This document shows positions 1 to 53,858 of a stretch of 64,000 nt of DNA, one piece after another (the first letter of the stretch is position 1; every line of letters starts with the position of its first letter). The DNA is from a virus. Its lineage: Duplodnaviria > Heunggongvirae > Uroviricota > Caudoviricetes. Both the position numbers and the translations under genes were made by a program. The stretch lies in the IMG/VR virus record IMGVR_UViG_3300042868_009434, one strand, 5' to 3'. Under the pieces are notes generated by a model. The model worked only from the letters and a program-made list of their open reading frames with translations, did not search any database and was not told the DNA's origin.

Positions 1-911
1 TCATCATATTGACCACCACCTGTTTTACTACCAGGGAATGTTAATGAAGTGTTATTGTTTCCGTATTCAACAATACCTTTACCATATCTTTGAGTAACAA
101 CTCTAAATAAGTAAGGGTTATTTGTATTTGCTGAAGTTGTTGTGTTTGTATTAATACCTTTAATTGTCAAATCAGCTAAGAAAGATTCATTGTCCATTGG
201 TTGACCATCAGGACCGATTAATTTACCTGCTCCCGCAGATGCAAAACCTGACATAACAATTAATACTTTTCTATAATCAGATAATCCATATCCTGAAACA
301 ACTAATTGGTCTCCCTCCCACGCAACAGTCTGAACTTTAGTACCATTAGTACTTAAATGAGTAACCGCTGAGAATTGTCCTTTTGAATAGTCATATAAAC
401 CTGGTGGGTCTAAAGCTGGTTCATTACCTTCATAGAATCTATCGTAAAGGTCTTTAGTGTTGTTGTAGTCGTAACCACTTCCTGGTCCATCAGGTCCATC
501 AACTGCGTCGTCATATCCAGGTGCCCCATAAGGTTTACGGTGAATACCATTAGTAGTTGTTGAATTTTCAGTGTACGCTTGAATGTTAGGTACGAAGTAG
601 AATAATTTACCAATTGGTAAGTTCATTGCTTGTACAGAAACGATGTCGTTAGATAATAATTTAGAGAATACTCTTCTAACAATTGGGAAAACCACTGTTT
701 CAAATGCACCTGTATCAGATGTAGATGATGCTTCGTTAATTAAATACGATGCTTGGTTTTCATATAATTGTGCAACGTTTTCTCTCATGTGACCTTTAAG
801 ACCCTCTAAGAATCCTAATTTGTCCCATTTGTTGATTGTGTCTTCTTTGATAACTTTAAGGTGTTTCAACCCGATGTTACCAACTAATCCTGATTCTAAT
901 AATGCTCCCAT
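1..911 (-). CDS. Major capsid protein, T4 gp23-like; N-terminal ~303 aa, partial, C-terminus lies beyond window start
   Basis: Reverse translation from ATG at 911 gives MGALLESGL...NKWDKLGFLEGLKG...AQLYENQ...VRRVFSKLLSNDIVSVQAMNLPIGKLFY. This matches the T4 gp23 N-terminal region (LNKW..LLEGEGL...IFENQ...VRRAIPNLIAFDICGVQPMNSPTGQVFAL). The gene sits downstream of the scaffold gene in T4 order. Confidence 0.85.
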   Translation of the reverse strand, partial: MGALLESGLVGNIGLKHLKVIKEDTINKWDKLGFLEGLKGHMRENVAQLYENQASYLINEASSTSDTGAFETVVFPIVRRVFSKLLSNDIVSVQAMNLPIGKLFYFVPNIQAYTENSTTTNGIHRKPYGAPGYDDAVDGPDGPGSGYDYNNTKDLYDRFYEGNEPALDPPGLYDYSKGQFSAVTHLSTNGTKVQTVAWEGDQLVVSGYGLSDYRKVLIVMSGFASAGAGKLIGPDGQPMDNESFLADLTIKGINTNTTTSANTNNPYLFRVVTQRYGKGIVEYGNNNTSLTFPGSKTGGGQYD

Positions 912-953: not shown

Positions 954-2534
954 TTACCCTAATTTACTCATTAAATCTTTCATTCTCATGAATTGCGGAT
1001 TTTCGTAAGTTTTTGATTCAATTAAAGTAGTCGATGAACCTGTAGATACTGTTTTTTGAATTCTGTTTTCTACTGATTCACTAAGTGATTTTTTAATTTC
1101 CGGTTTAGATAATTCACCTTTGATTGACTGATAAAGATTTTTAGATTCTTTTAAAGTTTCAACATCGTCAAATCTTCTTAAGATATTAATTTTCTCTTTT
1201 TTAGTAGTCGAATGTTCAGTAAACAATCTAGTTGCATATGCCAAGTTTGAATTGAAGATTGCAACTTCGTTAAGTTTTTCTCTGAAAACATTTAACGCTT
1301 TTCTGTATTCTTCATTTTTTTCTCTTAACATAGTCACCTCTTGAGTAGATTCTACTTTTACTCCATTTTTACCGTAAACATAATTTCTGTTATTAGTAAT
1401 CGCTTTTCTAAGTCCTCTACCTTCTTTGGAACCCATTCCGTATGTTCTAGCAGCTTCTTTTGTTTCTTCTTTTTCAAAAGCTTTTCTTTTTAAAGTATCA
1501 CCTTTTTTAGTAGTGTAATCTTCTTTACCTTTCATGGTTCTAGATTTTTCACCCTTATTCATTCCGTAATCACCTTCTTTTGTTTCTGCCTTTACAACTT
1601 TGGATTTTCCTTCCATATTTCCACCCTCTTTGTATTCGAATTTAGCTTTACCTGTACCTACAGATTTTGGACCTTCTTTTTTATTTTCATCGAATCCACC
1701 ACCGGCTTTACCTTTGTAAGTAAATTTAGGTCCTGAGCCAACTATACCTTTAGGTTTAACTGTTGATTTTCCTTCTCTCACAGCTCTTCTTGGGTTGTAA
1801 GACTCTCCTAAGTCCTCTCCGTCCTCTAAGTCCACCATGTCTTCACCGTCTTCTTCGTCGATAAATTTTTCTTCTTCATCGTCTTCAAATACAATTTCGA
1901 ACATAATTCCTTCAGAATCTTCAGAATCTTCGATATCGTCAACATCACCGTCAGCAAAAATTGCATCAATAACGTCATCAGTTGTTTGGTCATCCATTTC
2001 ACCTAATTCTTCAAAATTAAATTCCGTGTCATCCATTTCTTCATCCATATTATACTCATAGATATCGTCTTCAGATTCACCAAGTTTAACTAAATACTCT
2101 TCATCAGTATCATTATCAGTTAAGTGGATATCATCACCGTCTTTTTTTACAATGATTCCATCTTCTTCACCCATAGCTTTAAATACTTTCAAAATTTCTT
2201 CATCTGATGCACCTGTTAAGTCGATTGGACTTTCGTCTGAATCCATGTCCATATCAAAATCCATTTCAATGTCCATTTCATCTTCGTCTTCATTATCAGT
2301 ATCCATATCAAAATCCATTTCCTCTTCATCAGAGTCCATTTCATCATCCATGTCAACATCTAATTCAACCTCATCATCTTCTAAATCTTGTTCAGAAAGA
2401 GATTCTTTTACTAGCTGATTGATTTCTTCCTTCATAGTTGAAGCAAGTATTCCTTTTGCATTCTCGGCAATAGCTTCTTCAACTTGTCTCATTTGAATAA
2501 GCGCCTCTTGTACTAATTTGTTATTTTCTTGCAT
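954..2534 (-). CDS. Highly acidic low-complexity protein; putative prohead scaffold (gp22-like position)
   Basis: 526 aa with long D/E/M-rich repeats and a coiled-coil N-terminus. It lies between the prohead protease and the major capsid gene, as gp22 does in T4. Confidence 0.45.
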   Translation of the reverse strand: MQENNKLVQEALIQMRQVEEAIAENAKGILASTMKEEINQLVKESLSEQDLEDDEVELDVDMDDEMDSDEEEMDFDMDTDNEDEDEMDIEMDFDMDMDSDESPIDLTGASDEEILKVFKAMGEEDGIIVKKDGDDIHLTDNDTDEEYLVKLGESEDDIYEYNMDEEMDDTEFNFEELGEMDDQTTDDVIDAIFADGDVDDIEDSEDSEGIMFEIVFEDDEEEKFIDEEDGEDMVDLEDGEDLGESYNPRRAVREGKSTVKPKGIVGSGPKFTYKGKAGGGFDENKKEGPKSVGTGKAKFEYKEGGNMEGKSKVVKAETKEGDYGMNKGEKSRTMKGKEDYTTKKGDTLKRKAFEKEETKEAARTYGMGSKEGRGLRKAITNNRNYVYGKNGVKVESTQEVTMLREKNEEYRKALNVFREKLNEVAIFNSNLAYATRLFTEHSTTKKEKINILRRFDDVETLKESKNLYQSIKGELSKPEIKKSLSESVENRIQKTVSTGSSTTLIESKTYENPQFMRMKDLMSKLG

Positions 2535-2897: not shown

Positions 2898-3614
2898 TTA
2901 TTTTCCTAAAAAGTCGTTTAATTTTTTCATTAAGTCAACTGACTTCTCTACATAATCGTCTTTTTGTTTATATTTTTTTTCTTCTTCAAGATTTTCTTCA
3001 TACTTGTCTCTATCATCAGCATTTGTAAACAAATACGCTCCCGGTGTTGATGGTGATGATACTAAGTCAAAACAAATTAATTCAAAATCATCTTGAACTT
3101 CATTCCTTTCACCAACTTTTTTAAGTGAACCAACCCCACGAGAAGAAATACCTAAAGTAACCCCTTGTCTCATTAAGTTTGCCGCTTGGTCTCCTTTGGT
3201 TGAAACAATTCCTCTTTCATGAAATCCCGGGGAAGTTAGCAATTTAAGTTTTCCCATTAATATGTTTCTGTCCCACCATACGTCAGTAATGATATGAGAT
3301 ACTCGGTCTAAATCAATTAAAGATGATTCAGGGTGATTTAACTCTGATGTTGATAACCCTTTTTCGATTGCAATTTTATAATTGTCGGCCTCTCTTTTTA
3401 ATATCCTTTCAGGATATGTTCTACCGTTTCTATTAGGTGTGTCATATTTTTGTAAAACAGCATAAAATTCAAATGGGTTTCTATAATCCATTTCTTTCGC
3501 CTCTTTTAAAACTTTTTCATTATGTTTGTCTTTTGGTGAAACCCAACCTGCGTCTGCCTCAACTAATATACCGTGTCCGGTTTCGGTTGCCTCTAATATT
3601 CTTAATTGTTTCAT
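2898..3614 (-). CDS. Prohead core protease, T4 gp21-like (S77 family), putative
   Basis: 238 aa positioned between the portal/core genes and the scaffold. The sequence HPESSLIDLDRVSH...GISSRGVGS resembles phage prohead serine protease segments. Confidence 0.55.
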   Translation of the reverse strand: MKQLRILEATETGHGILVEADAGWVSPKDKHNEKVLKEAKEMDYRNPFEFYAVLQKYDTPNRNGRTYPERILKREADNYKIAIEKGLSTSELNHPESSLIDLDRVSHIITDVWWDRNILMGKLKLLTSPGFHERGIVSTKGDQAANLMRQGVTLGISSRGVGSLKKVGERNEVQDDFELICFDLVSSPSTPGAYLFTNADDRDKYEENLEEEKKYKQKDDYVEKSVDLMKKLNDFLGK

Positions 3615-4228: not shown

Positions 4229-4927
4229 TTAAATAGATTCTTCTAAATTTTTAAGTTTTAAAAAATTCATTTGGTCAAACTTTTCATCTTTCAATCTATC
4301 GATAGTTTCAGAAATTTTTGTTTTTATTTCAGACTCTTGTTCAGTATCTAACATCCCTTTAAGTTTTGTGATTGTATTCTCACGTAAAGTCTCAAATTTA
4401 GTTTCAAGAGTTTTAGTGTCTTCAGATATTAATTGAAAAAATTCTTTTTTAGAGTTTTCATCTAAGTTTTCAATATATCCTCTTAATGTTTGGTTAGCAA
4501 TACTAACCATCGATTTAATTGGAATATTAATAGATTCTTTAACCGTTTCTTTTTTAGTTGTTAAAACTTTAATTATGTTCTTCTTAGCATTTACTCTTTC
4601 AAGTAAATTTAATTTGTTTGAATACGCCAATACATCTAAATCAGAATAATTATTTTTAATTGTTTCTGATAAACTTTTTGGTGATTTTATTGTTGGTAAA
4701 ATCTTATGTAATAAACTAATCCCTTCTTCTAAAAATTCTTTAGCATCCTGTTCAGATAAACCTTGAGGCGTACTTAATTGGTCATATAAAGCATAAGCCT
4801 TTGACATAGATTTATTGTTCAGAACATTATGTTTGAACTCTCTTAAAGATTTTTTGAAATCTTTCTCGTCACTATATGACTCAAGTAGATTTTTTTCGAT
4901 TATGGATTTTAGGTTTCCGAAGGTCAT
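4229..4927 (-). CDS. Hypothetical coiled-coil protein; possible prohead core or scaffold-associated protein
   Basis: 232 aa, K/E-rich and helical, located between the portal and the protease. Confidence 0.4.
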   Translation of the reverse strand: MTFGNLKSIIEKNLLESYSDEKDFKKSLREFKHNVLNNKSMSKAYALYDQLSTPQGLSEQDAKEFLEEGISLLHKILPTIKSPKSLSETIKNNYSDLDVLAYSNKLNLLERVNAKKNIIKVLTTKKETVKESINIPIKSMVSIANQTLRGYIENLDENSKKEFFQLISEDTKTLETKFETLRENTITKLKGMLDTEQESEIKTKISETIDRLKDEKFDQMNFLKLKNLEESI

Positions 4928-16489: not shown

Positions 16490-18505
16490 ATGAACGACTT
16501 AATGGACGAAAACGACAAATCAGGTAACAGAGCTCAAAAACAAGCTATGGACACAAATACTCCTGTATTAGACAATTTCAGTAGAGATTTAAACAAACTA
16601 GCGGAGGCAGGTAAATTAGACCCTGTAATTGGTAGAGATGCCGAGATTTTGAGAATCGCACAAATCCTTTCTCGTAGAAAAAAGAATAACCCTATTATCA
16701 TAGGTGAGCCCGGGTGTGGTAAAACTGCACTTGTTGAGGGTCTTGCCATGAAAATCGTAAGTGGAGAATGCCCAAGAAACTTAGTGGACAAAAGAATCGT
16801 GAACCTTGATTTAACTTCAGTTGTTGCAGGTACCAAGTATCGTGGACAATTCGAAGAAAGAATGAAAGTGATTATTGAAGAACTAAGTGCAAATCCAAAC
16901 ATCATCGTGTTTATTGATGAGATTCATACATTAGTTGGTTCAGGTAATTCATCAGGTTCAATGGATGGTTCAAACATCTTCAAACCAGCACTTGCTCGTG
17001 GTGAGGTTCAATGTATTGGAGCAACAACTCTTGATGAGTTCCGTAAGAACATTGAAAAAGACGGAGCATTGGAAAGAAGATTCCAAAAAGTAGTTGTGGA
17101 ACCATCAACAGTTGAGGAAACAATCGAAATCCTTAAAAATGTTCGTGATAAATACGAATCATACCACAAGGTATTGTACAGTGACGAAGTTGTTGAAACT
17201 TGTGTTAAATTGGCGGACCGTTATATTACCGACCGTGAGTTTCCGGATAAAGCGTTTGATATCTTAGATGAGGTTGGGGCTCGTATGCAAACCGAGATTA
17301 AAGTTCCTGAAGTTATTGAGGAATTGAAAAAGAAAGCTGCGGAGATTAAAATTGAGAAAATGGAAGTAGTTAAAAAACAAAACTACGAACAAGCGGCCCA
17401 ACTTAGAGATAAGGAGAAAAAATTGTTAATCAAACTTGAGGCGGAAAAAGAGAAGTTTTCAAAACAAATGGATTTGGAAAAACAAACTATTGTTCTTGAA
17501 ACTGTTTATCAAGTTGTATCAAGTATGACTAAGATTCCTGTGAATAAAATGGACGCAGATGACTCTAAAGCATTGATGAATTTAGATAAATCAATCATGG
17601 GTAAAGTAATTGGTCAAGACGCGGCTGTTGTTAAGATTGCTAAATCAATCAAGAGAAACCGTTTAGGTATCAAAGACCCTAACAGACCTATTGGTTCATT
17701 TATCTTCTTAGGTTCAACCGGAGTGGGTAAAACTCACTTGGCAAAACAATTGGCTAAAGAGATGTTTGGAACTGAAGATTCACTTATCCGTGTGGATATG
17801 TCAGAATACCAAGAGAAACACTCAATCTCTAAATTGGTTGGAGCACCTCCGGGATATGTTGGGTATGAAGAAGGTGGATTATTAACTGAGAAAGTTAAAA
17901 ACAAACCATATTCTGTTATCTTATTTGATGAGGTGGAGAAAGCTCACAAAGATGTCTTCACGGTTTTACTTCAAATCTTGGATGATGGATTTGTAACCGA
18001 TAGTTTAGGTAGAAAGATTAACTTCAAGAATACCTTGATTATCTTAACCTCTAACTTGGGTGTTAAGAAATTACAAGACTTCGGTACTGGTATTGGTTTC
18101 TCAAATAACTCATACGCAGATGAGGAGGCGAAAAAACAAATCTTGATGAAAGAAATGAAAAACTTCTTCTCTCCGGAGTTTATTAACCGTATTGACGACA
18201 CTATTGTCTTCAATTCATTATCTCCTGAAGATATTGAAAAAATTACAGAGATTGAGTTAAAGAAATTAATGACTCGTCTTGGTGATATGAAATACACAGT
18301 AACCTACAATGATGAAGTAGTAAAATACTTGGCTAAGATTGGGTTCGATGAAGTGTACGGAGCAAGACCATTGAAGAGAGCAATCCAAGATAAGATTGAG
18401 GATTTGTTATCTGAAGAAGTGTTAACCGGTAAAATGATTGAAGGTAAATCTTACCAAATTAAAATGGATGGAGAGGATATCAAAATCACTAAAAAAGGTA
18501 GATAA
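16490..18505 (+). CDS. clpC: ClpC/ClpA-type AAA+ unfoldase with two nucleotide-binding domains and no N-domain
   Basis: D1 Walker A is GEPGCGKTA and D2 Walker A is GSTGVGKTH. The UVR-like middle domain reads YEQAAQLRDKEKKL. Candidate ClpP-docking loops are GTGIGFS and the GARPLKR sensor. Confidence 0.85.
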   Translation: MNDLMDENDKSGNRAQKQAMDTNTPVLDNFSRDLNKLAEAGKLDPVIGRDAEILRIAQILSRRKKNNPIIIGEPGCGKTALVEGLAMKIVSGECPRNLVDKRIVNLDLTSVVAGTKYRGQFEERMKVIIEELSANPNIIVFIDEIHTLVGSGNSSGSMDGSNIFKPALARGEVQCIGATTLDEFRKNIEKDGALERRFQKVVVEPSTVEETIEILKNVRDKYESYHKVLYSDEVVETCVKLADRYITDREFPDKAFDILDEVGARMQTEIKVPEVIEELKKKAAEIKIEKMEVVKKQNYEQAAQLRDKEKKLLIKLEAEKEKFSKQMDLEKQTIVLETVYQVVSSMTKIPVNKMDADDSKALMNLDKSIMGKVIGQDAAVVKIAKSIKRNRLGIKDPNRPIGSFIFLGSTGVGKTHLAKQLAKEMFGTEDSLIRVDMSEYQEKHSISKLVGAPPGYVGYEEGGLLTEKVKNKPYSVILFDEVEKAHKDVFTVLLQILDDGFVTDSLGRKINFKNTLIILTSNLGVKKLQDFGTGIGFSNNSYADEEAKKQILMKEMKNFFSPEFINRIDDTIVFNSLSPEDIEKITEIELKKLMTRLGDMKYTVTYNDEVVKYLAKIGFDEVYGARPLKRAIQDKIEDLLSEEVLTGKMIEGKSYQIKMDGEDIKITKKGR

Positions 18506-36116: not shown

Positions 36117-36122
36117 AAATTG

Positions 36123-36206
36123 AGGAAGACATGGGAATCGAACCCACAACGGTGTTACCCGCTACTTGTTTTCAAGACAAGCTCCTCGTCCATTCGGCCG
36201 CCTTCC
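36123..36206 (-). tRNA. tRNA-Ser (anticodon TGA), type II
   Basis: Anticodon arm cttgt-cttgaaa-acaag, long variable arm, acceptor ggaaggc/gtcttcc. Confidence 0.55.
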
Positions 36207-40801: not shown

Positions 40802-40804
40802 TTT

Positions 40805-42394: not shown

Positions 42395-42410
42395 TGAAGA
42401 AAAAATAGTG

Positions 42411-43042: not shown

Positions 43043-43789
43043 ATGATGAACGTAGGACAAGAATTTCAAAGTTATTACACAAAACATTTAGGTAAACCAT
43101 CTTTGGATTTACACAACTTCAACAACCACATTCAAAATTCAATGACTCCTTACATTTTGGAGGAAAGAGAAATGAGAGTAACCCAAATGGATATTTTCTC
43201 TCGTTTAATGATGGATAGAATATTATGGGCTTCAGGTCCGGTTGACGACAGAATGGGTGATATCATCCAATCACAACTTATTTTCTTAGACAACTTAGAT
43301 AAGAAAAAAGATATTAATTTATATCTACAAACTCCGGGTGGAAGTGTTTTAAGTGGATTAGGTATTAGAGACACGATGAACTTTATTAACGCGGATGTTG
43401 CGACCACTAATATTGGTATGTGTGCATCTATGGGTTCAGTATTATTATCTTCAGGGACAAAAGGTAAGAGGTCATCTTTAATTTTCTCAAAAGTAATGAC
43501 TCACATGGTTTCTCACGGAACACAAGGTAATGTTCAAGACACAAGAATTAATCAACTTGAGGCCGAAAAATACAATTATTTGTTATTTAAAATATTGGCG
43601 GAGAATTGTGGTAAGACATTTGAAGAAATGTTAGAATCATCAAGAAATGATAAATGGTTCAATTCTGATGAAGCGTTACAATTTGGTCTAATTGATAAAA
43701 TTGTTGGTGTGGAGAAAAATCAATCAATGTCAGATATGATGGTTGGATTTGACGATTATTATGAAAAAGAAATTCTTAAAAGAAAATAA
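43043..43789 (+). CDS. clpP: ClpP-family serine protease
   Basis: Aligns to E. coli ClpP: the Ser motif GMCASMGS, the His segment VMTHMVSHGTQGN and the Asp segment SSRNDKWF are conserved. Confidence 0.85.
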   Translation: MMNVGQEFQSYYTKHLGKPSLDLHNFNNHIQNSMTPYILEEREMRVTQMDIFSRLMMDRILWASGPVDDRMGDIIQSQLIFLDNLDKKKDINLYLQTPGGSVLSGLGIRDTMNFINADVATTNIGMCASMGSVLLSSGTKGKRSSLIFSKVMTHMVSHGTQGNVQDTRINQLEAEKYNYLLFKILAENCGKTFEEMLESSRNDKWFNSDEALQFGLIDKIVGVEKNQSMSDMMVGFDDYYEKEILKRK

Positions 43790-43902: not shown

Positions 43903-44556
43903 TTATGTTGCAACTTCAGGTTTTAATTTATCATAAACACTTGAAGCTTTTTTATTAAAATTGTTGTACACTCCACAGACAGTACTTTCTAATTTGTCTT
44001 GTAATTCAATCACAACTTTAGTATCTTGAATTGCACCTAATAATGTATTTCTTAATATTGTATATCCGGTACCTTGCATCCCTTGTTGTTCTTGTACCAT
44101 CATCACTAATGCCTCAACTAACGCCTCAGAAACTAACGCAGTTAGTTCGTTACAACTTTTTAAGGCTTTTGCAAGTCTCCTTGGGTCTTTAAGTATAAAA
44201 GACATTAAAGCATTTTTAAAAAATCCTGACAATCCAAGTCCTCCTAAAATTGAATTAACAATTGGTTCAACCGCAGTTTGAACAATACCACTTAAACTAT
44301 TCCCGAACATCTTACCCAAGAAATCCATTAATTGCTCATTCAAAATATTGTTTTCGTCTAAAAATCTAATTTCCTCAATTAAATTTTTAGCAATTTTCAT
44401 TTTCTTACCCTCAGGTAGAAATTCAAAATTATCTATAACTTCTTTAGATTCAACTATTGCAAAAATTCTACTTTTAACTAAATTTTCTTCAATTAAAATT
44501 TTTTCTTTTTGTTCTTTAGTCTCTTTAATTACCTTTTTTATTTTTTTCTCAATCAT
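43903..44556 (-). CDS. Hypothetical protein
   Basis: 217-aa ORF. Confidence 0.45.
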   Translation of the reverse strand: MIEKKIKKVIKETKEQKEKILIEENLVKSRIFAIVESKEVIDNFEFLPEGKKMKIAKNLIEEIRFLDENNILNEQLMDFLGKMFGNSLSGIVQTAVEPIVNSILGGLGLSGFFKNALMSFILKDPRRLAKALKSCNELTALVSEALVEALVMMVQEQQGMQGTGYTILRNTLLGAIQDTKVVIELQDKLESTVCGVYNNFNKKASSVYDKLKPEVAT

Positions 44557-44563
44557 TACTTAA

Positions 44564-45607
44564 TTAATTTAATAACCATTTAGAATTATCACCATATGGT
44601 AATGGACCACCTGAACCTCCACGTAGAGTTTCAACATAATTATCAATTTTACTTAGTGCACCACCCCATTTACCATCAAATTCATTCACACATGCTTGAA
44701 CTTTTTCTTTCATTGGTGCAAATGTGTTTGGTTCAACTCGTTTTTTAGTTCTCCAAGCCTCATAGTAAGCTCTAATTGTATCTCTACAGTCACTTTTACT
44801 TGTTGGAGTTTGACTCGTAACCGCTTTACTAAATTGGTCGGCGATTTTATCTCCTGATGACCCTACGACTAAATTAGGTGAAAAATACATGATTAAATCT
44901 TGAGAGAATATACCTTCACTAGCAGGACTGACAACTTTTGAAGTCCAAGTTTTAACTTGTTCAGAATCTAATTGATTTCTTAATTTATACCCTAAATCAG
45001 TATATTTTTTAATAAGTTTTGTTTGTTCATCGTTTAGTCCACCAGCGATTCCACTACTTGCAACACTTCTATATAGTGTAACTCCGTTAACAACTTTTTT
45101 CTCAAACATTTTTGGGTTTTCTAAGTTTTCACGAGTTGTTTGAATTTCACTCGCCTCTTTCCATCCACCTTCTGTTTTAACTAAATTAGTATCTTTAGTG
45201 TTTGCATCTTGTTGAGCCTTTAATGCCGCTTGTTGTGTTTTTATTTGTTCGGCTTTTGAACATTTCCATTTTCCTTTTTCACCTGTTGCAGGTAATAGAT
45301 AAGTCATATCTGGATAAAAAATAAGAACTTGGTTAGATTTTAGAGTAGTTGTTTGATAAGCGGGTTTTTTAGTCCCTTTTATGTATTTAATTACCCCATT
45401 TTTAAAACATCCTGCCGCCTCAGAATCCTTAAGAAATTTTCTATCAATTTCATCTTGATTCACAACAACTTCCTCTTTTTTAGGTTCCTCTTTTTTAGGT
45501 TCCTCTATTTTAGGTTCTTCTGTTTGTTCTAATAACCCTTTTTTTCTCAACTTAGAATGCATTTCTAAGATTTGTTTTACTTCGTTTGAGTCTACATTAA
45601 ATTTCAT
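44564..45607 (-). CDS. Hypothetical protein (ORF extends to 45733; start uncertain)
   Basis: Long ORF. The internal Met was chosen to avoid overlap with the downstream gene. Confidence 0.4.
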   Translation of the reverse strand: MKFNVDSNEVKQILEMHSKLRKKGLLEQTEEPKIEEPKKEEPKKEEVVVNQDEIDRKFLKDSEAAGCFKNGVIKYIKGTKKPAYQTTTLKSNQVLIFYPDMTYLLPATGEKGKWKCSKAEQIKTQQAALKAQQDANTKDTNLVKTEGGWKEASEIQTTRENLENPKMFEKKVVNGVTLYRSVASSGIAGGLNDEQTKLIKKYTDLGYKLRNQLDSEQVKTWTSKVVSPASEGIFSQDLIMYFSPNLVVGSSGDKIADQFSKAVTSQTPTSKSDCRDTIRAYYEAWRTKKRVEPNTFAPMKEKVQACVNEFDGKWGGALSKIDNYVETLRGGSGGPLPYGDNSKWLLN

Positions 45608-45614
45608 CTTGTAA

Positions 45615-46784
45615 TTATTTATCTTGAATATTATTTGATTCTTCTGAGTCACTCTCACCATCTTCAAGTCCATAATCATCCGTCTTAGCTGGTGGTAATT
45701 TTTCTTCAGTCGGTTTATTTGCCGTTCTAACACCAGGGTGTCTTGTATCTAAAATACCGGTTGCGGTTGGATTATTCTCTAATGAAACCCAATCTTTAAT
45801 TATTTTACCTTTATTTTTCCAACTTTTAGTAAACCATTGTCCATTAACTACTTTATACTGATATGGGTCTCCAGGAAACGTATAAGCTCCATCTTCTTTT
45901 GGTTGATATTCTCCACCTCCAGTATTTCCACCTCCGGTATTTCCACCTCCGGTATTTCCATCTTCTATAGGGGCTTCTTTAGGGGTACCTTCAGGGTTTT
46001 CGGTAAGTGTACCTTCCGCTTTCATAGTTTGAACGATAGCATATACACCAGCACCACCAATCAACAATCCTACCCCCCATTTTAACCAACGAGTAAATGG
46101 CCATTTTGATGCCCCTTGAGTTAAAACTTGTTTGTTCGCATCTGCCAAGATTGCTTTAATTTGAGTTGATGTTGCCGGTTTACCTCCAACAGTTACTTGT
46201 TGAATCAATTTTTCTCTAGTAAATTGACCTAAATTTTTAGTACCTAATCTAGCTTTTTCAGCTTGAGCTAATTTTTGATATTGGGCCTTTTCAGCGGCTG
46301 TGAGTCCTTGAGTACTACCAGCAGAACGATTTGCAATTTTATTAGCAATTTCATCAGCGACATCATCAGGGTATCCTCCTTTTTTAAACGCTTTTGCAAT
46401 ATCTGATTGACTTTTACCTCGATATAAATTGATAACATCATCACTATTTGTAATTGATTTAATCAATGACGATTTATCTGAGAAACTAATTGAAGGGTTT
46501 TTCAAAAATGTGTTTGTTAATAAAGTACCACTAGCATCATCCAAAGCTGTTGTTGAACCTTTCTTTAAGATGTTTTTTAAGTCATCCGCACTTGTTACTG
46601 CAATACCTGTTTTTGTTTTTAAAGTACCTTTCTTAAAAATATCATCTAAAGCCTTACCCCCTTTACTTATCAAATTCTTCCAAACTTGTGGTTGTTCTAA
46701 TAGTGGTTCTAAGTTTTCGGTTAATGTTTTCTTAACATCATAACCCATTAGTAGTTTAATTCTACTTGTTTCGTTTATATTCAT
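45615..46784 (-). CDS. Putative virion/internal protein with conserved N-terminal motif RIKLLMGYDVKKTLTEN and a Gly-rich repeat
   Basis: The N-terminal 17 aa are near-identical to the N-terminus of the 48042-48557 ORF. GGGNTGGGNTGGG and transmembrane-like segments are present. Confidence 0.5.
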   Translation of the reverse strand: MNINETSRIKLLMGYDVKKTLTENLEPLLEQPQVWKNLISKGGKALDDIFKKGTLKTKTGIAVTSADDLKNILKKGSTTALDDASGTLLTNTFLKNPSISFSDKSSLIKSITNSDDVINLYRGKSQSDIAKAFKKGGYPDDVADEIANKIANRSAGSTQGLTAAEKAQYQKLAQAEKARLGTKNLGQFTREKLIQQVTVGGKPATSTQIKAILADANKQVLTQGASKWPFTRWLKWGVGLLIGGAGVYAIVQTMKAEGTLTENPEGTPKEAPIEDGNTGGGNTGGGNTGGGEYQPKEDGAYTFPGDPYQYKVVNGQWFTKSWKNKGKIIKDWVSLENNPTATGILDTRHPGVRTANKPTEEKLPPAKTDDYGLEDGESDSEESNNIQDK

Positions 46785-46804
46785 GATTTTTATTTATAAT
46801 GTTT

Positions 46805-48052
46805 TTATTGAGGAAATTGACTTGTATCATATTTTATATTCATTGAAGCCAACTGACTTCCCATATCTAAATCGTCATTTCCGAATGAACCCGCAAATGC
46901 CCTATTATCCGCACCAAATGCGGTATTTAACCCGGCAGTTAATCCGGCAGCAGTTGCAACTTTCCCCGTTCTACTCGACAATACCTTTCCAACCGGAGCT
47001 AATTTAGTTTTTAAAGATGTACCAGTATTGGTCACCTTTTGTTTTAGATTTTTCGCAGATTTACCTACAGTTTGTTTTAAATTTCCAGACGCTTTTGCAA
47101 CATCATCAATAACACCGGTTAATTTAGTTTTTAATTGACTTGAAACTTTTTCTAAAGATTTAATTCCAAGTTTTTTCCCTAACCAACTAACCCCTTGGAG
47201 CATATACGCCCCAATTTGTGAAAGACCTGATACTATTTTTGATAGTATAGATGAAAACCATTTTACTGTTGAAGACCCTGATGTTGCCATTTTTTTAATA
47301 ATCCCACTTAACGGTAATTTAGTCCCTAAAATACCTAATTGTTTAAATATTCCAGCAACAATCTTAGCGCCTGGACCTGTCGTTACAACCCCTATTAAAT
47401 CGATAATAATATTAACCCAATCCCAACTTCCATTAATCCCCTGTAATATATCCCAAGCTAACATCGCACCCCATACAACTACTAAAATAACATTTCCAAC
47501 ACCTGAGGTTGAAGTTGCTAAAAAAGCTTGTACCGCGGCACCGCCCCAACTAAATAAAGCCTTTCTTAGATTTTCAAAAAACCAACCAAGACCTTTATTC
47601 ACTAACCAATCAGTTCCGGCATTGACCTTATCTTTTAATTTACTAAAAAATCCTTTATCTTCTGATTGTTCGTTTATTGTTAAAAAATTAGACAATGATT
47701 CTATAATATAATCCCAAGATGATGAAATAATGTCATTATCTTTACCTTCAGTTATTAAATTATTAGAATATTTTTGTTCAAATTCTAATATAAATAAATC
47801 TTTAGTTTTTCCATCAAATATTTCAGAAATACCATACACAGTTTCTCTGATAATTTTTTGAATACTTAAAAAATCAGTTATTTTATTATTATATGATTTT
47901 TGTGAATTTTCTTTTAAAAAGTTTAACCAAAAATTAATGTCGGTATTTTTAATATTAAACGATTTGTCACTAGCAATATCATATAATGTATTTTCATACA
48001 TAATGTATTGTCCGTTATGGGATAACGATAATAAATTTAAATTAAATACCAT
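46805..48052 (-). CDS. Hypothetical protein with Gly/Ala-rich hydrophobic segments
   Basis: 415 aa containing WGGAAVQAFLATSTSGVGNVILVVVWGAMLAWDIL. Confidence 0.45.
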   Translation of the reverse strand: MVFNLNLLSLSHNGQYIMYENTLYDIASDKSFNIKNTDINFWLNFLKENSQKSYNNKITDFLSIQKIIRETVYGISEIFDGKTKDLFILEFEQKYSNNLITEGKDNDIISSSWDYIIESLSNFLTINEQSEDKGFFSKLKDKVNAGTDWLVNKGLGWFFENLRKALFSWGGAAVQAFLATSTSGVGNVILVVVWGAMLAWDILQGINGSWDWVNIIIDLIGVVTTGPGAKIVAGIFKQLGILGTKLPLSGIIKKMATSGSSTVKWFSSILSKIVSGLSQIGAYMLQGVSWLGKKLGIKSLEKVSSQLKTKLTGVIDDVAKASGNLKQTVGKSAKNLKQKVTNTGTSLKTKLAPVGKVLSSRTGKVATAAGLTAGLNTAFGADNRAFAGSFGNDDLDMGSQLASMNIKYDTSQFPQ

Positions 48053-48557
48053 ATTTCATTTCTTCTTTTGATTTAACTTTACAAATTTCTTGTTTTGAAT
48101 TAACCGGTACTGTACACCAAGATTTAAGTTGTGATGATATTTTACCGACAATTGTTTTCATTAAATTCCCTGAAAACCACTCACCATCAATCGCATCATA
48201 TAAATTCTCACCATTAACTTCAGGATAAGTCTTAATTATTGCCATACTATTAGATATGTTATTAAATACTTTATTAATAACATAATCTATATCTCCTTGT
48301 CGTCCAATCCCCTCAATAGCCTTTAAGAATGCTGCTGCATTTTTTTTAGGGTCTCCCGTTGGATTTCCGTAATTTATTGTCATTTTCTCAGGATATTTCA
48401 TATATCCTTTTACAATACTCTTAAAATATTCGTCAGGACTTGCTGTCTGCTCAAAAATAACACTTTTATTTTCATTTAATGTTTTTGATGAATCATAACC
48501 CATCATTAACTTAACTCTATTTAACGCCTCTTCAGGACTATATTGTGGTTGTACCAT
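48042..48557 (-). CDS. Putative virion/internal protein with conserved N-terminal motif RVKLMMGYDSSKTLNEN
   Basis: Shares its N-terminal motif with the 45615-46784 ORF. The upstream motif is TATTTATAAAAT. Confidence 0.5.
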   Translation of the reverse strand: MVQPQYSPEEALNRVKLMMGYDSSKTLNENKSVIFEQTASPDEYFKSIVKGYMKYPEKMTINYGNPTGDPKKNAAAFLKAIEGIGRQGDIDYVINKVFNNISNSMAIIKTYPEVNGENLYDAIDGEWFSGNLMKTIVGKISSQLKSWCTVPVNSKQEICKVKSKEEMKYGI

Positions 48558-48569
48558 ATCTCAAGTATT

Positions 48570-48587
48570 TTATTTTATAAATATATC
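48570..48587 (-). promoter_or_regulatory. TATTTATAAAAT late-promoter-like motif
   Basis: The minus strand reads atatatttataaaataaaatacttgagatATG. Confidence 0.35.
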
Positions 48588-48591
48588 ATTA

Positions 48592-48843
48592 TTACCAAAT
48601 TTGATTAGCCGCTCCTCTATTTAATCCTGTTTGCCATTTTTCCCCCGCTTTTCCCAACATATTCGCTTTACCTCGTGTTAATGTATAAAAATCTGACCAT
48701 TTAGGGACTGACCCTCCACCACCTCCTGAAGATGGTGCAGATGAGGCAGGTGCAGCGTCTTGCTCACCAATTTCATCTTTCGATTCAGTTGATGGAGTGT
48801 ATTTTTTGAAGAAATCAATAAGTGCGTTAATATCTGTAACCAT
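48592..48843 (-). CDS. Hypothetical protein with a Gly/Ser/Pro-rich segment
   Basis: 83-aa ORF. Confidence 0.35.
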   Translation of the reverse strand: MVTDINALIDFFKKYTPSTESKDEIGEQDAAPASSAPSSGGGGGSVPKWSDFYTLTRGKANMLGKAGEKWQTGLNRGAANQIW

Positions 48844-48877
48844 TTTTAATATTTTTTTTTGTTATTTAAATAAATAG

Positions 48878-49429
48878 TTGTACTTTAGCCGTATGAAAAA
48901 AATAATCTTAATATTATCGGTATGTTTCTTACTTTTTTCCTGTGAAGCGTATGTAACAGAAAAAAGTGATGTAACACTTAGTGGGAAATATGTGGTTTCC
49001 AAATTAGACATTACTAACGTTGACCAAAATCAAACAAGAGATTCTTTATATCTTCTTGGGACAACGTATAACAACTCATCACTACCAAAACCATTTGATG
49101 TAATACCAATTAATCATTTTTACATTCATATGGATTATGCATCAATTAGAATGAAATTAGTAGGAGTTACTCAAGGTGGTCAAGACATTTGGGGTTATGG
49201 TAATGCACCCAATGAAATTTTTTACAGAATCTTAAATAATAACTCTTATGACCTTGGATACCTACAATTTGATTACATCACGGACAATGGTTCTTCTCGA
49301 AGAATTACATTTCACATTGAACATGACGGATATGAAAGTCTTCAGTTAAAGAGTGTTGGTGGTTGGTTTAATGGTAAGTACGGTGAAAAACAAGTTATGA
49401 CAATGTTTTTAACAAGAGTGGGTCCTTAA
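48878..49429 (+). CDS. Putative lipoprotein
   Basis: Signal peptide and lipobox MKKIILILSVCFLLFSC. Confidence 0.5.
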   Translation: MYFSRMKKIILILSVCFLLFSCEAYVTEKSDVTLSGKYVVSKLDITNVDQNQTRDSLYLLGTTYNNSSLPKPFDVIPINHFYIHMDYASIRMKLVGVTQGGQDIWGYGNAPNEIFYRILNNNSYDLGYLQFDYITDNGSSRRITFHIEHDGYESLQLKSVGGWFNGKYGEKQVMTMFLTRVGP

Positions 49430-52768: not shown

Positions 52769-52800
52769 AAAAACCCCTCATTATTGAGGGGTTAGTTTTA
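52766..52800. terminator. Bidirectional terminator hairpin
   Basis: aacccctcattattgaggggtt between convergent genes. Confidence 0.55.
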
Positions 52801-53841: not shown

Positions 53842-53858
53842 TTATTATAAATACACAC
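53842..53858 (-). promoter_or_regulatory. TATTTATAATAAAAC late-promoter-like motif
   Basis: The minus strand reads gtgtatttataataaaacttatttATG. Confidence 0.35.

What the first reader, a model, noticed from the sequence alone, without database searches (positions are those of the whole stretch)
45615..48557. Shared 17-aa N-terminal motif R(I/V)KL(L/M)MGYD..KTL(T/N)EN on two otherwise different proteins: candidate capsid-targeting or protease-processing signal
Proteins at 45615-46784 and 48042-48557 begin with near-identical segments ending in TLTE/TLNE. This fits the L/I-x-E cleavage rule of T4 gp21-type prohead proteases. T4 internal proteins are packaged through short N-terminal targeting sequences removed by gp21. 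Here the gp21-like protease is encoded at 2898-3614. These may be internal or ejected proteins, possibly anti-defence cargo.
Basis: inference. Interest (0 to 1): 0.6.

Follow-up and report, generated by a model that had tools for sequence, protein, structure and literature searches.

The report
Shared N-terminal leader on phage proteins
Two otherwise unrelated proteins of an uncultured T4-like phage start with the same ~30-residue leader, which turns out to head hundreds of different envelope-binding proteins in this phage lineage and most likely is a propeptide that loads them into the capsid and is then cut off by the head protease.

Summary
P1 (45615-46784) and P2 (48042-48557) share only their N-termini: 14/25 identical, BLASTP E=1e-6; family profiles align over 39 columns, E=1e-9.

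A leader profile finds 748 protein clusters (50% identity level), almost always at residues 1-37. These occupy one syntenic slot in a lineage of uncultured, probably freshwater, T4-like phages.

Across 126 diverse members the leader ends in two tandem sites: T-L-x-E-N, then [I/V/L]-x-E-Q seven residues later. In both, P3 is hydrophobic, P2 is free and P1 Glu is invariant, which is the gp21 L/I-X-E pattern. Synonymous codons vary freely, so selection acts on the peptide.

Three neighbouring gene families carry different N-termini that also end in h-x-E-Q/E. The capsid protein aligns to T4's E65|A66 cut at "LINE|A". The same contigs encode an S77 protease.

Cargo is annexin-like repeats, Cys-rich peptidoglycan-binding modules and some membrane helices, mostly without any export signal. 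No anti-defence enzyme was found.

Best reading (about 0.5): a bipartite capsid-targeting and processing propeptide. No proteomics exists, and the phage also encodes its own ClpC-ClpP protease, so rivals remain.

The parts
48042..48557 (-). P2: 171-aa leader protein. Leader aa 1-37, then a single annexin-like repeat domain with two invariant Cys.
   Evidence: ORF. 53 homologues aligned. AF2 pLDDT 84. All top Foldseek PDB hits are annexins, though none is significant (best E=0.097). PDB profile search finds annexin XII/III at E=5e-5.
48447..48557 (-). P2 leader, aa 1-37: MVQPQYSPEEALNRVKLMMGYDSSKTLNENKSVIFEQ. It is a predicted amphipathic helix (aa 8-18) followed by two h-x-E sites.
   Evidence: The leader profile finds 748 clusters at residues 1-37.
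48471..48479 (-). P2 candidate protease site 1: L27-N28-E29 (|N30).
   Evidence: Over 126 proteins: L27 in 116, x28 variable, E29 in 126, N30 in 125.
48450..48458 (-). P2 candidate protease site 2: I34-F35-E36 (|Q37).
   Evidence: Over 126 proteins: I/V/L34 in 122, x35 variable, E36 in 120, Q37 in 90.
45615..46784 (-). P1: 389-aa leader protein. Leader aa 1-31, helical domain (~aa 30-220), one TM helix (~aa 228-250), Gly-rich linker, small beta domain 'GDPYQYKVVNGQW..', acidic C-terminal tail.
   Evidence: ORF. Alignment of 25 homologues. AF2 pLDDT 65 with a disordered leader. No PDB fold match.
46692..46784 (-). P1 leader, aa 1-31: MNINETSRIKLLMGYDVKKTLTENLEPLLEQ. Site 1 is L21-T22-E23 (46716-46724); site 2 is L28-L29-E30 (46695-46703).
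48592..48843 (-). W83: 83-aa protein directly upstream of the leader gene in 75 of 87 loci. Its N-terminal helix ends in a near-invariant E-[MIL]-G-E-Q (I25-G26-E27-Q28 at 48760-48771). The predicted mature part is 56 aa and basic (pI 9.8).
   Evidence: (95% of the family has h-x-E-Q in the first 50 aa).
46805..48001 (-). W398: hydrophobic, Gly-rich, probably multi-pass membrane protein lying between P2 and P1. It is present only in the closest relatives (7 loci). The start is 48001 as called in public records, or 48052 for the longest ORF.
   Evidence: No family match.
44564..45607 (-). W347: 347-aa protein. Its N-terminus 'NEVKQILEMHSKLRKKGLLEQ' ends in L25-L26-E27-Q28 (45524-45535). In some phages its C-terminal body is fused behind the canonical leader (L045).
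   Evidence: (96% of the family has h-x-E-Q).
43903..44556 (-). W217: 217-aa protein. Its N-terminus 'KKIKKVIKETKEQKEKILIEE' ends in L21-I22-E23-E24 (44485-44496), which is LLIEQ in most relatives. In some phages its body is fused behind the canonical leader (L087).
   Evidence: (61% have h-x-E-Q; most of the rest have L-I-E-E).
48576..48583 (-). Promoter-like element TATTTATA, 18 nt upstream of the P2 ATG. It is conserved as ATATTTATAA in 39 of 61 distinct upstream regions of leader genes. A second copy lies upstream of W83 at 48870-48876.
2898..3614 (-). gp21-type prohead protease (Peptidase_S77), the proposed processing enzyme.
   Evidence: Found on the same contigs as leader loci in five IMG/VR contigs.
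729..740 (-). Predicted maturation site of the major capsid protein, I58-N59-E60|A61. The gene starts at 911 and runs off the window start.
   Evidence: Alignment with T4 gp23 puts T4 E65|A66 on this E|A. 'LINEAS' is invariant in the 7 distinct N-termini printed for 44 related loci. Coordinates checked.
954..2534 (-). Very acidic 526-aa protein in the gp22 (scaffold) position. It has an invariant 'ESLSEQ' (L46-S47-E48-Q49 at 2388-2399) just before the acidic region.
   Evidence: (gene order as in T4).
4229..4927 (-). 232-aa protein in the gp67/gp68 (prohead core) position. It has conserved 'NLLES' and 'GL[STN]E' motifs.
43043..43789 (+). Cellular-type ClpP, tail-to-tail with the leader cluster. 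Listed because it is the rival protease.
   Evidence: nearby in 51 of 87 loci; NCBIfam ClpP E=1.4e-67.
16490..18505 (+). ClpC/ClpA-type double-AAA+ unfoldase with a 'GIGF' ClpP-docking loop. It appears to lack the usual N-terminal domain, inferred only from the PHROG match beginning at profile position 155. It is the partner of the rival protease.

Best explanation
The shared segment is a bipartite N-terminal propeptide.

**Anatomy**
- An amphipathic helix (..PEEALxR[IV]KLMMxYD..) serves as the handle. It would dock the precursor onto the assembling prohead core.
- Two tandem gp21-type sites follow: K-T-L-x-E|N, then [I/V/L]-x-E|Q seven residues later.

**Proposed course of events**
1. The handle docks the precursor to the prohead core.
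2. The phage's S77 prohead protease (2898-3614) cuts at the two sites.
3. A basic mature protein is left inside the head: about 135 aa for P2 and about 359 aa for P1.
4. That protein leaves the virion at infection.

**Where the cargo would act.** The bodies are annexin-like membrane-binding repeats, Cys-rich peptidoglycan-binding modules and sometimes a membrane helix, and most have no export signal. They would therefore act in or on the host envelope after ejection.

**The wider cluster.** All of 43903-48843 (W83, P2, W398, P1, W347, W217) is read as a cassette of such prohead-core or ejected proteins. The gene right after W83 is a hypervariable cargo slot.

**Shown here**
- The leader and its conservation pattern.
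- Its restriction to protein N-termini.
- Cargo diversity and synteny.
- Co-occurrence with the S77 protease.
- The homology-based capsid-protein cut site.

**Inferred, not shown**
- Binding to the prohead core.
- Cleavage.
- Presence in virions.
- Ejection.
For: 1. **Site-like conservation.** Over 126 diverse leader proteins: T26 in 124, L27 in 116, position 28 free (N/T/K/D/S/R), E29 in 126, N30 in 125. Then I/V/L34 in 122, position 35 free, E36 in 120, Q37 in 90. In 124 of 126 a second h-x-E follows within 4-12 residues, and in 86 it is at exactly +7. This is the L/I-X-E rule of gp21 (PMC9026906). Multiple sites within propeptides are known (PMC5694885).
2. **Selection on the peptide.** Invariant residues use up to 4-5 synonymous codons. 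After codon 37 the sequences are unalignable.
3. **Always N-terminal.** The profile matches residues 1-37 in nearly all of the 150 best of 748 clusters. It sits at ORF starts in 101 ORFs of 87 loci.
4. **Cluster-wide signature.** [LIMVF]-x-E-Q occurs in the first 50 aa in 95% of the W83 family, 96% of W347, 61% of W217 and 78% of leader proteins. It occurs in 0% of the W107, lipoprotein, ClpP and W209 families. Chance expectation is about 8%.
5. **Interchangeable N-termini.** W347-type and W217-type bodies occur behind the canonical leader in other phages.
6. **Known substrates carry the motif.** The capsid protein has 'YLINE|ASS', aligned to T4 E65|A66. The scaffold-position protein has an invariant 'SLSEQ' and the core-position protein has 'GLSE'. 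Gene order portal-232-146-S77-69-526-MCP mirrors T4 20-67-68-21-22-23.
7. **Active-looking protease, co-occurring.** The S77 protease keeps gp21's conserved motifs. It lies about 43 kb from the leader locus on five shared IMG/VR contigs, as in this window.
8. **No export route.** 60 of 78 members with peptidoglycan-binding-type modules have no TM-like segment, and the N-terminus is the charged leader. Delivery by the virion would explain how such domains reach the periplasm.
9. **Phage-only.** There are just 5 hits in 185,579 species genomes, four on MAG contigs under 3 kb plus one weak 17-residue match on a 54-kb MAG contig.
10. **Charge pattern.** Predicted mature P2, P1, W83 and W347 are basic (pI 8.8-9.8), with acidic propeptides on P2, P1 and W83. 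T4's internal proteins are also basic.
11. **Shared upstream element.** W83 and P2 carry the TATTTAT element that is also conserved upstream of the scaffold-position, core-position, portal and protease genes.
12. **Precedents.** T4 CTS. SPN3US gp53/gp54 with identical N-termini. SPN3US gp47, an ejection protein with a membrane helix right after its propeptide and hypervariable genes at the same position in relatives.
Against: - **No direct data.** No virion or N-terminal proteomics exists, and there is no cultured relative. tblastn of P1, P2 and W107 against 50,697 phage records found nothing.
- **The motif is short.** h-x-E-Q is expected by chance in about 8% of N-termini.
- **Size and conservation.** The leader is 30-37 aa and far more conserved than T4's 10-19-aa CTS.
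- **No similarity to the scaffold.** It shows no significant similarity to the N-terminus of the scaffold-position protein: hhalign probability 1.6%.
- **Site 1 is not universal.** A subfamily has S instead of L at P3 ('KTSTEN', 9 of 126).
- **Location.** The cluster lies 40 kb from the head module, among non-structural genes.
- **The upstream element is not specific.** TATTTAT also precedes an HNH endonuclease and a DUF6445 (PF20043) gene, so it does not prove late, structural expression.
- **Cargo type is unprecedented.** T4's internal proteins go to the cytoplasm. Disulfide-type peptidoglycan-binding cargo has no precedent for a T4-type head.
- **A second protease system.** The phage has its own ClpC-like unfoldase and ClpP, and ClpP abuts the cluster.
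Confidence: 0.5

Rival explanations
1. The leader is an uncleaved docking or oligomerisation peptide. It would assemble these proteins into an envelope-associated complex in the infected cell, for example for lysis control, superinfection exclusion or envelope remodelling. The conserved N-terminus would bind a conserved phage partner such as W83 or W107, and the variable body would face the variable host envelope. This is the same logic as a tail fibre's conserved N-terminal anchor.
For: - The slot is fixed and syntenic, with conserved small neighbours: W83 in 75 and W107 in 85 of 87 loci.
- A lipoprotein is divergently encoded next door.
- P1-type members look like type II membrane proteins, with the leader at the cytoplasmic end.
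- The cluster lies among non-structural genes.
- A signal-bearing glucosaminidase is encoded about 6 kb away.
Against: - It does not explain the P3-fixed, P2-free, P1-Glu pattern repeated twice.
- It does not explain why three unrelated neighbouring families also end their N-termini in h-x-E-Q.
- Most peptidoglycan-binding members have neither a membrane helix nor a signal peptide, so they could not reach the periplasm from inside the cell.
Confidence: 0.17
2. The leader is a virion-incorporation signal for the tail lumen or baseplate rather than the head. The proteins would be expelled into the periplasm on sheath contraction, and the head protease would never see them.
For: - Cargo suited to the periplasm (peptidoglycan-binding, disulfide-type Cys, membrane helices) and no export signal.
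- In contractile-tail phages, tube-lumen proteins are the ones released into the periplasm (general knowledge of T4 gp29/gp5; not tested here).
Against: - The tandem Glu sites and the cluster-wide h-x-E-Q would be left unexplained.
- No tail genes lie near the cluster.
Confidence: 0.1
3. The leader is a recognition tag (degron) for the phage's own Clp protease, made of the ClpC-like unfoldase at 16490-18505 and ClpP at 43043-43789. It would time the removal of these proteins during infection.
For: - ClpP abuts the cluster and is nearby in 51 of 87 loci. It is a cellular-type ClpP.
- The phage encodes a double-AAA+ unfoldase with a GIGF ClpP-docking loop.
- Clp unfoldases are known to read N-terminal tags (general knowledge).
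Against: - ClpP is convergently transcribed, and the whole region is syntenic anyway, so adjacency is weak evidence.
- Degrons are usually short and loosely conserved. They are not 30-aa peptides with two endoprotease-like sites.
- The unfoldase appears to lack the N-domain that binds adaptors or substrates; the PHROG match starts at profile position 155.
Confidence: 0.08
4. The leader is a new, non-Sec export signal. It would carry folded envelope-binding proteins across the inner membrane through a phage-encoded conduit, for example the multi-pass W398 or a holin, and would be removed afterwards.
For: - Extracytoplasmic-type cargo without a classical signal.
- Hydrophobic membrane proteins are encoded in the same cluster.
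Against: - W398 is present in only 7 of 87 loci.
- The leader has no hydrophobic core or twin-arginine motif.
- No precedent is known.
Confidence: 0.05
5. The shared motif is just a remnant of gene duplication or recombination between paralogues, with no function of its own.
For: P1 and P2 are neighbours in one cluster. Modules, including the C-terminal tails, are visibly shuffled among family members.
Against: - 748 clusters keep the leader while everything after residue 37 is unalignable.
- Invariant residues are encoded by many synonymous codons.
- Both observations mean strong purifying selection on the peptide.
Confidence: 0.02

Closest known systems
T4 capsid-targeting sequences (CTS) of internal proteins IPI/IPII/IPIII and Alt, removed by gp21 (Mullaney & Black 1996; reviewed in PMC9026906 and PMC9958956)
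   Same: - An N-terminal propeptide on non-essential proteins encoded away from the head module.
- It ends in L/I-x-E.
- The phage has a gp21-family protease.
- The leader is conserved and the cargo is variable.
- The mature proteins are basic.
   Different: - 30-37 aa with two tandem sites, against 10-19 aa in T4.
- No sequence similarity to the T4 CTS.
- Far stronger conservation.
- Cargo is envelope-binding (annexin-like, peptidoglycan-binding, membrane helix), whereas T4's cargo is DNA-associated or acts in the cytoplasm.
- One hypervariable slot holding hundreds of cargo variants.
- Function is untested here.
Propeptides of ejection and inner-body proteins of giant phages SPN3US, phiKZ and 201phi2-1, cut by an S80 protease (PMC5694885)
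   Same: - Diverged paralogues with identical N-termini that carry protease motifs (gp53/gp54).
- Several cleavage motifs per propeptide.
- An ejection protein whose mature part starts with a membrane helix (gp47).
- Highly diverged genes at the equivalent position in relatives.
   Different: - Those motifs are A/S/G-x-E, whereas here P3 is L/I/V.
- Those propeptides are often longer than 100 aa.
- The protease family is S80 rather than S77.
- Those phages are jumbo phages with an inner body.
MuF-type and other polymorphic toxins delivered by phage particles, with a conserved N-terminal trafficking part and a swappable C-terminal module
   Same: The architecture: a constant N-terminal 'address', interchangeable downstream modules, and module shuffling between relatives.
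   Different: - No toxin or enzyme domain was found in 126 members.
- The address is a short peptide, not a folded domain.
Annexins (cargo of P2) and PG_binding_1 domains (cargo of many family members)
   Same: - P2 residues ~69-142 match a single annexin repeat in sequence profile and predicted fold.
- Six members pass Pfam PG_binding_1.
   Different: - A single repeat instead of the four-repeat annexin core.
- The peptidoglycan-binding modules carry four extra conserved Cys.

Membership tests
T4-type capsid-targeting / prohead-protease propeptide | Located at the extreme N-terminus of the precursor | tested here: met
   The profile matches residues 1-37 in nearly all listed clusters. It sits at ORF starts in 87 loci.
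T4-type capsid-targeting / prohead-protease propeptide | Ends in the protease's motif (L/I-X-E, cut after Glu) | tested here: met
   Two tandem sites with P3 hydrophobic, P2 free and P1 Glu: 126/126 and 120/126. The motif definition is from PMC9026906. This is sequence-level evidence only.
T4-type capsid-targeting / prohead-protease propeptide | The same genome encodes a gp21-family (S77) prohead protease | tested here: met
   Pfam PF03420 at 1.7e-21 and PHROG 207 at 2.3e-41. Conserved gp21 motifs. Found on the same contigs as the leader locus in five IMG/VR contigs.
T4-type capsid-targeting / prohead-protease propeptide | Shared by otherwise unrelated or hypervariable cargo proteins | tested here: met
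T4-type capsid-targeting / prohead-protease propeptide | Propeptide is actually removed in proheads; mature protein is present in virions | not testable with these tools
   Needs virion N-terminal proteomics. No cultured relative is in the phage collection.
T4-type capsid-targeting / prohead-protease propeptide | Sufficient to carry a foreign protein into the capsid | not testable with these tools
   Needs a fusion-packaging experiment.
T4-type capsid-targeting / prohead-protease propeptide | Sequence relatedness to the T4 CTS, or length of 10-19 aa | tested here: not met
   The leader is 30-37 aa, against 10-19 aa in T4. tblastn of P1 and P2 against 50,697 phage records, T4 included, found nothing. 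It is therefore an analogue, not a homologue, of the T4 CTS.
Giant-phage (phiKZ/SPN3US) ejection-protein propeptides | Cleavage motif A/S/G-X-E and an S80 protease | tested here: not met
   P3 is L/I/V here and the protease is S77.
Giant-phage (phiKZ/SPN3US) ejection-protein propeptides | Several protease motifs within one propeptide; paralogues sharing the N-terminus | tested here: met
   Compare PMC5694885.
Sec / Tat / lipoprotein signal peptide | Hydrophobic h-region (or twin-arginine, or lipobox) at the N-terminus | tested here: not met
   The column profile of residues 1-37 is charged and amphipathic, with no hydrophobic run, no RR and no lipobox.
Annexin (cargo of P2 only) | Annexin-repeat fold and sequence profile | tested here: met
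   PDB profile search finds annexin XII/III at E=5e-5 over aa 69-142. Foldseek top hits are all annexins, with ~75-82 aligned residues at rmsd 2.7-4 A, though every E-value is above 0.09. Three family members pass the Pfam Annexin search at E<=3.4e-6.
Annexin (cargo of P2 only) | Four-repeat core | tested here: not met
   There is room for a single repeat in the 135-aa body.
Clp N-terminal degron | Recognition and degradation by a Clp unfoldase-ClpP pair | not testable with these tools
   The phage encodes both parts, but no sequence rule defines such tags.
Polymorphic toxin (phage-delivered) | C-terminal toxin or enzyme module | tested here: not met
   The Pfam scan of 126 members found only PG_binding_1, Annexin and two DUFs.

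The most novel reading that the evidence does not exclude
An abundant, uncultured, probably freshwater T4-like phage lineage carries a 'cargo slot'. A strongly conserved 30-37-aa bipartite propeptide (a docking helix plus two protease sites) would load interchangeable envelope-binding modules into the capsid. Those modules are annexin-like, Cys-rich peptidoglycan-binding, membrane-helix and swappable acidic-tail units. They would be ejected into the host periplasm rather than the cytoplasm. That would make them virion-delivered envelope effectors, a cargo class not described for T4-type heads, carrying a portable address tag usable for engineering.
Probability: 0.3. Interest if true: 0.75.

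Novelty: new variant of a known kind. Interest (0 to 1): 0.6.

Why it matters
If the reading is right, four things follow.
1. It gives a sequence rule for recognising packaged or ejected proteins in a very common but uncultured phage lineage. The rule is an N-terminal helix plus h-x-E|Q/N. More than 599 protease loci and 154 confirmed leader loci are present in IMG/VR alone.
2. It shows that the T4 'address tag plus protease' logic has been reinvented with a different, longer tag. Here the tag is coupled to a hypervariable cargo slot, the kind of locus expected where phage and host are in an arms race.
3. It points to envelope-directed cargo, which is unexpected for a T4-type head.
4. It offers a short portable tag for packaging foreign proteins.

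The prediction is directly testable. One N-terminal proteomics run, or one protease-plus-substrate co-expression, would settle it.

If the reading is wrong, a 30-residue peptide kept nearly invariant on hundreds of unrelated proteins still needs an explanation.

Tried and rejected
**Searches and comparisons that led nowhere**
- **Cultured relatives.** Megablast of the region and tblastn of P1, P2 and W107 against 50,697 phage records found no match. No cultured relative or virion proteome is therefore available. The portal's best hits are Microcystis phage Mel-JY01 (40%) and Flavobacterium phage immuto (37%).
- **Family libraries.** Pfam, PHROGs and NCBIfam gave nothing significant for any of the six cluster proteins.
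- **Leader versus scaffold N-terminus.** I tested whether the leader resembles the N-terminus of the scaffold-position protein. From memory, T4's CTS resembles the gp22 N-terminus; that comparison was not checked here. 'EEALNRVK' lines up with 'QEALIQMR' at the same residue numbers, but hhalign gives probability 1.6%. I rejected it as evidence.
- **'AIAEN' in the scaffold-position protein.** It is not a conserved site; the Glu is Q or A in relatives.
- **Fold searches.** The P1 model has no PDB match. The P2 model has no significant match among viral predicted structures.
- **C-terminal acidic tails.** I checked them for L/I-x-E sites by eye and found none.
- **Promoter motifs.** A T4 late-promoter-like NATAAATA lies upstream of the capsid gene, P1 and W347, but is too frequent in this AT-rich DNA to weigh. 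TATTTAT is a real upstream element: 17 of 92 genes carry it. It is not confined to structural genes.
- **A third canonical leader copy.** I considered 44564-45607 as one. The leader HMM does not detect it, so I treat it as a different N-terminal type that shares only the h-x-E-Q end.
- **Literature.** A search for the motif strings found no paper.

**Tool errors.** Searches were malformed and returned nothing.

Full report
**1. The observation**

Both ORFs exist at the stated coordinates, but on the minus strand. The plus-strand translations are full of stops.
- P1 (45615-46784, 389 aa) begins MNINETSRIKLLMGYDVKKTLTENLEPLLEQ.
- P2 (48042-48557, 171 aa) begins MVQPQYSPEEALNRVKLMMGYDSSKTLNENKSVIFEQ.

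BLASTP between them aligns only aa 7-31 with aa 13-37: 14/25 identical, E=1e-6. Profile-profile comparison of their families aligns only the leader: 39 columns, probability 96%, E=1.2e-9. In the 64-kb window the motif occurs only in these two ORFs.

The window has 32.5% G+C. It comes from a distant T4-like phage:
- an S77 prohead protease at 2898-3614, with cyanophage gp21 as the best cultured hits at about 41%;
- a gp20-type portal and a terminase;
- the gene order portal-232-146-protease-69-526-capsid, which mirrors T4's 20-67-68-21-22-23.

No cultured phage carries P1, P2 or their neighbours.

**2. The motif is a family-wide leader**

A word-indexed search with P2 returned its own family. 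It also returned about 60 proteins of 250-300 aa that share only the first ~37 residues at 70-89% identity.

A 37-column leader profile was searched against 1.84 billion cluster representatives. It found 748 clusters at E<=1e-3 and 188 at E<=1e-10. Among the 150 best, the match almost always covers residues 1-37.

In IMG/VR, 154 loci were confirmed and 80 were fetched. Together with the seven loci fetched earlier, that makes 87. Each holds 1-3 leader ORFs, always at the ORF start.

Only five hits turned up among 185,579 species genomes. Four are on MAG contigs under 3 kb and one is a weak 17-residue match on a 54-kb MAG contig. The MAG names, such as Aquiluna and lake Bacteroidetes, suggest fresh water. 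The leader is therefore phage-specific.

No paper in the library contains the motif strings.

**3. Anatomy of the leader**

The table gives residue counts over 126 diverse members.

| Position | Site 1 | Count (of 126) | Position | Site 2 | Count (of 126) |
|---|---|---|---|---|---|
| P4 | T26 | 124 | – | – | – |
| P3 | L27 | 116 | P3 | I/V/L34 | 122 |
| P2 | position 28: N/T/K/D/S/R | variable | P2 | position 35: F/S/N/K/L/E/T | variable |
| P1 | E29 | 126 | P1 | E36 | 120 |
| P1' | N30 | 125 | P1' | Q37 | 90 |

- Residues 6-22 (Y..PEEALxR[IV]KLMMxYD) are at least 90% conserved at most positions.
- In 124 of 126 proteins a second h-x-E follows the first within 4-12 residues. In 86 it is at exactly +7.
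- Both sites thus have a fixed hydrophobic P3, a free P2 and an invariant Glu at P1. This is the L/I-X-E rule described for T4 gp21 (PMC9026906).
- A more distant variant reads KTL[TN]EQ (L078).
- Invariant residues are encoded by up to five synonymous codons. Synonymous differences are as common as non-synonymous ones inside the leader, and after codon 37 the sequences cannot be aligned. Selection therefore acts on the peptide, not on DNA or RNA.
- AF2 predicts a helix at aa 8-18 of P2 and a disordered leader in P1.

**4. The cargo**

Everything after the leader is modular.
- **P2 body.** It is a single annexin-like repeat. The PDB profile search gives E=5e-5, and all top Foldseek hits are annexins, although none is individually significant. 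The AF2 model has pLDDT 84.
- **Other members.** They combine annexin-like 'GxGTDE' segments, Gly-rich or membrane helices, PT/GGNT linkers, and one of two C-terminal module types. One is a Cys-rich PG_binding_1-like module. The other is the 'GDPYQYKVVNGQW' module seen in P1. All end in a short acidic tail of a few interchangeable types.
- **Pfam scan of 126 members.** It found only PG_binding_1 (6), Annexin (3) and two DUFs. There were no enzymes or toxins.
- **Export.** Of 78 members with peptidoglycan-binding-type modules, 60 have no TM-like segment, and none has a signal peptide, because the N-terminus is the charged leader.

The cargo therefore looks built for the cell envelope but lacks a known way to get there from the cytoplasm.

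**5. Context**

The leader gene occupies a fixed slot:

W107 (acidic, 85 of 87 loci) – lipoprotein W178 (opposite strand) – W83 (75 of 87) – LEADER gene(s) – W347 – W217 – then a convergent ClpP.

In different phages the slot holds bodies of 170 to about 1000 aa behind the same leader.

Five IMG/VR contigs appear both in the leader list and in the list of S77 protease loci, with about 43 kb between the two genes, as in this window.

**6. A cluster-wide signature**

The neighbouring families have different N-termini that end in the same way:
- W83: 'DVDFLIDFFKK...E[MIL]GEQ'
- W347: 'EESEKxxILxMHKSLxKEQ'
- W217: 'KKIKKxILETKExKEKLLIEQ/E'

The table gives the share of distinct family members with [LIMVF]-x-E-Q in the first 50 residues.

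| Family | With the motif |
|---|---|
| W83 | 95% |
| W347 | 96% |
| W217 | 61% |
| Leader proteins | 78% |
| W107 | 0% |
| Lipoprotein W178 | 0% |
| ClpP | 0% |
| W209 | 0% |
| Chance expectation | about 8% |

In other phages, W347-type and W217-type bodies sit behind the canonical leader (L045, L087). The N-terminal segments are therefore functionally interchangeable.

Known or expected protease substrates carry the motif too:
- The capsid protein's 'YLINE|ASS' aligns with T4 gp23 E65|A66. The 65-residue gp23 propeptide is documented in PMC5694885.
- The scaffold-position 526-aa protein has an invariant 'ESLSEQ'.
- The core-position 232-aa protein has 'GLSE'.

The protease itself keeps gp21's conserved His, Ser and Asp motifs.

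Predicted mature P2, P1, W83 and W347 are basic (pI 8.8-9.8), and the propeptides of P2, P1 and W83 are acidic. T4's internal proteins are also basic.

**7. Regulation**

A conserved ATATTTATAA element lies between the W83 stop codon and the leader ATG in 39 of 61 distinct upstream regions. The TATTTAT core is also conserved upstream of the scaffold-position and core-position genes.

In the window it precedes 17 of 92 genes within 50 nt. These include the scaffold-position gene, protease, portal, W83 and P2. They also include an HNH endonuclease, a DUF6445 (PF20043) gene and an M23-like gene.

It is a genuine promoter-like element shared with head genes, but it is not proof of late, structural expression.

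**8. Interpretation**

The best-supported reading is a bipartite propeptide:
- a docking helix that brings the precursor into the prohead core;
- tandem sites at which the S77 protease releases the mature protein.

This is the logic of the T4 CTS. It is closer still to giant-phage ejection proteins:
- SPN3US gp53/gp54 are diverged paralogues with identical N-termini that contain protease motifs.
- Several motifs per propeptide are usual there.
- gp47 is an ejection protein with a membrane helix right after its propeptide, and the genes at that position are hypervariable among relatives.

Virion delivery would also solve the cargo's missing export route.

I put this reading at about 0.5, for these reasons:
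- Nothing shows cleavage or packaging directly.
- The tag is not homologous to the T4 CTS.
- It shows no significant similarity to the scaffold N-terminus.
- A subfamily lacks Leu at site 1.
- The cluster lies among non-structural genes.
- Periplasm-type cargo has no precedent for a T4-type head.

**9. Rivals**

- **Uncleaved docking peptide for an envelope complex in the infected cell (0.17).** The fixed slot, the conserved small neighbours and the type II topology of P1 fit. The twice-repeated site pattern and the export problem do not.
- **Tail-lumen or baseplate incorporation signal (0.10).**
- **Tag for the phage's own Clp protease (0.08).** The phage encodes a cellular-type ClpP next to the cluster and a ClpC/ClpA-type unfoldase with a GIGF loop. 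This deserves a direct test.
- **New export signal (0.05).**
- **Functionless duplication remnant (0.02).** Contradicted.

**10. Verdict**

Relative to known systems this is a new variant of the CTS/propeptide kind. It is not a homologue of the T4 CTS.

Interest is 0.6. A nearly invariant address tag on hundreds of unrelated envelope-binding proteins, in an abundant uncultured phage lineage, is unexpected. It can be tested with a single proteomics or co-expression experiment.

Noticed in passing
window 16490-18505 (+) and 43043-43789 (+): The phage encodes its own Clp protease. One part is a 671-aa ClpC/ClpA-type double-AAA+ unfoldase with two Walker A motifs and a 'GIGF' ClpP-docking loop near aa 535; it appears to lack the N-domain, inferred only from where the PHROG match begins. 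The other part is a cellular-type ClpP (NCBIfam E=1.4e-67). This is unusual for a T4-like phage, and its substrates are unknown.
   Followed up: partly
window 29399-36206 (-): A block of 26 tRNA genes on the minus strand covers 19 of the 20 standard amino acids (no tRNA-Lys is missing, but no tRNA for one residue type appears). An HNH endonuclease gene (30499-31167) sits inside the block.
   Followed up: no
window, e.g. 2557-2564, 6844-6851, 13343-13350, 14119-14126, 48576-48583, 53846-53853 (minus-strand genes): A promoter-like element (A)TATTTAT(A/T) lies 3-39 nt upstream of 17 of 92 genes in the correct orientation. It is conserved at the same place in related contigs upstream of the leader gene, the scaffold-position gene and the 232-aa core-position gene. 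In four genes it ends only 3 nt before the annotated ATG, so those starts or the element's role need checking.
   Followed up: partly
related proteins P0057-P0159, P0165-P0296; window 45615-45680 (C-terminus of P1): Leader proteins end in short acidic C-terminal tails of a few types. Examples are '..DDYGLEDGESDSEESNNIQDK', '..LPQDDELLDVDSM', '..PEISGEVQSISGNSDF' and '..EDTDxEDVDGxDPNQI'. The tails are swapped between otherwise different families. They look like a second, C-terminal tag of unknown function.
   Followed up: partly
window 48893-49429 (+): A 178-aa lipoprotein (lipobox LLFSC) is divergently encoded next to W83. It is conserved at this position in 47 of 87 loci and also in the distant locus L078. 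It could be a superinfection-exclusion or spanin-like protein.
   Followed up: no
window 52798-53832 (-), 60025-60645 (+), 19448-20671 (-): Three further ORFs have N-termini in the style of W347. They are 'SAAEKSDILDQHRSL' (W347 N-terminal HMM E=0.007), 'ETQLKSILTEQ' and 'LTESELNRIVKRVLQTEQ'. Two are preceded by TATTTAT. They may be additional members of the same processed class outside the cluster.
   Followed up: partly
window 46013-46030 (P1 aa 252-257, just after the membrane helix): P1 contains a second 'GTLTEN' right after its membrane helix ('KAEGTLTENPEGTP'). Relatives have TLTDN or ITDN there, so the Glu is not conserved. It is probably not a protease site.
   Followed up: partly
window 12484-13329 (-): A 281-aa head-module protein is made largely of Pro/Thr repeats (TPTNTPTNT...). 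Its N-terminal part is Cys-containing and its C-terminus is conserved. It is preceded by both TATTTATA and TATAAATA.
   Followed up: no
window 39137-43007 (+), 51515-52768 (+): There is a cluster of sugar or modification enzymes: two carbamoyltransferases, a heptosyltransferase-like protein and a GT17 glycosyltransferase. Two further genes lie nearby, a 2OG-Fe(II) oxygenase (PF13640) and a DUF6445 (PF20043) protein. These could act in DNA, protein or envelope modification.
   Followed up: no
IMG/VR loci L040, L049, L053, L060, L071 (contigs of 282-322 kb): Leader loci also occur on contigs of about 280-320 kb. One of these, at 309 kb, carries the same leader and protease genes as a 152-kb contig. 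It may be an assembly concatemer rather than a jumbo genome.
   Followed up: no
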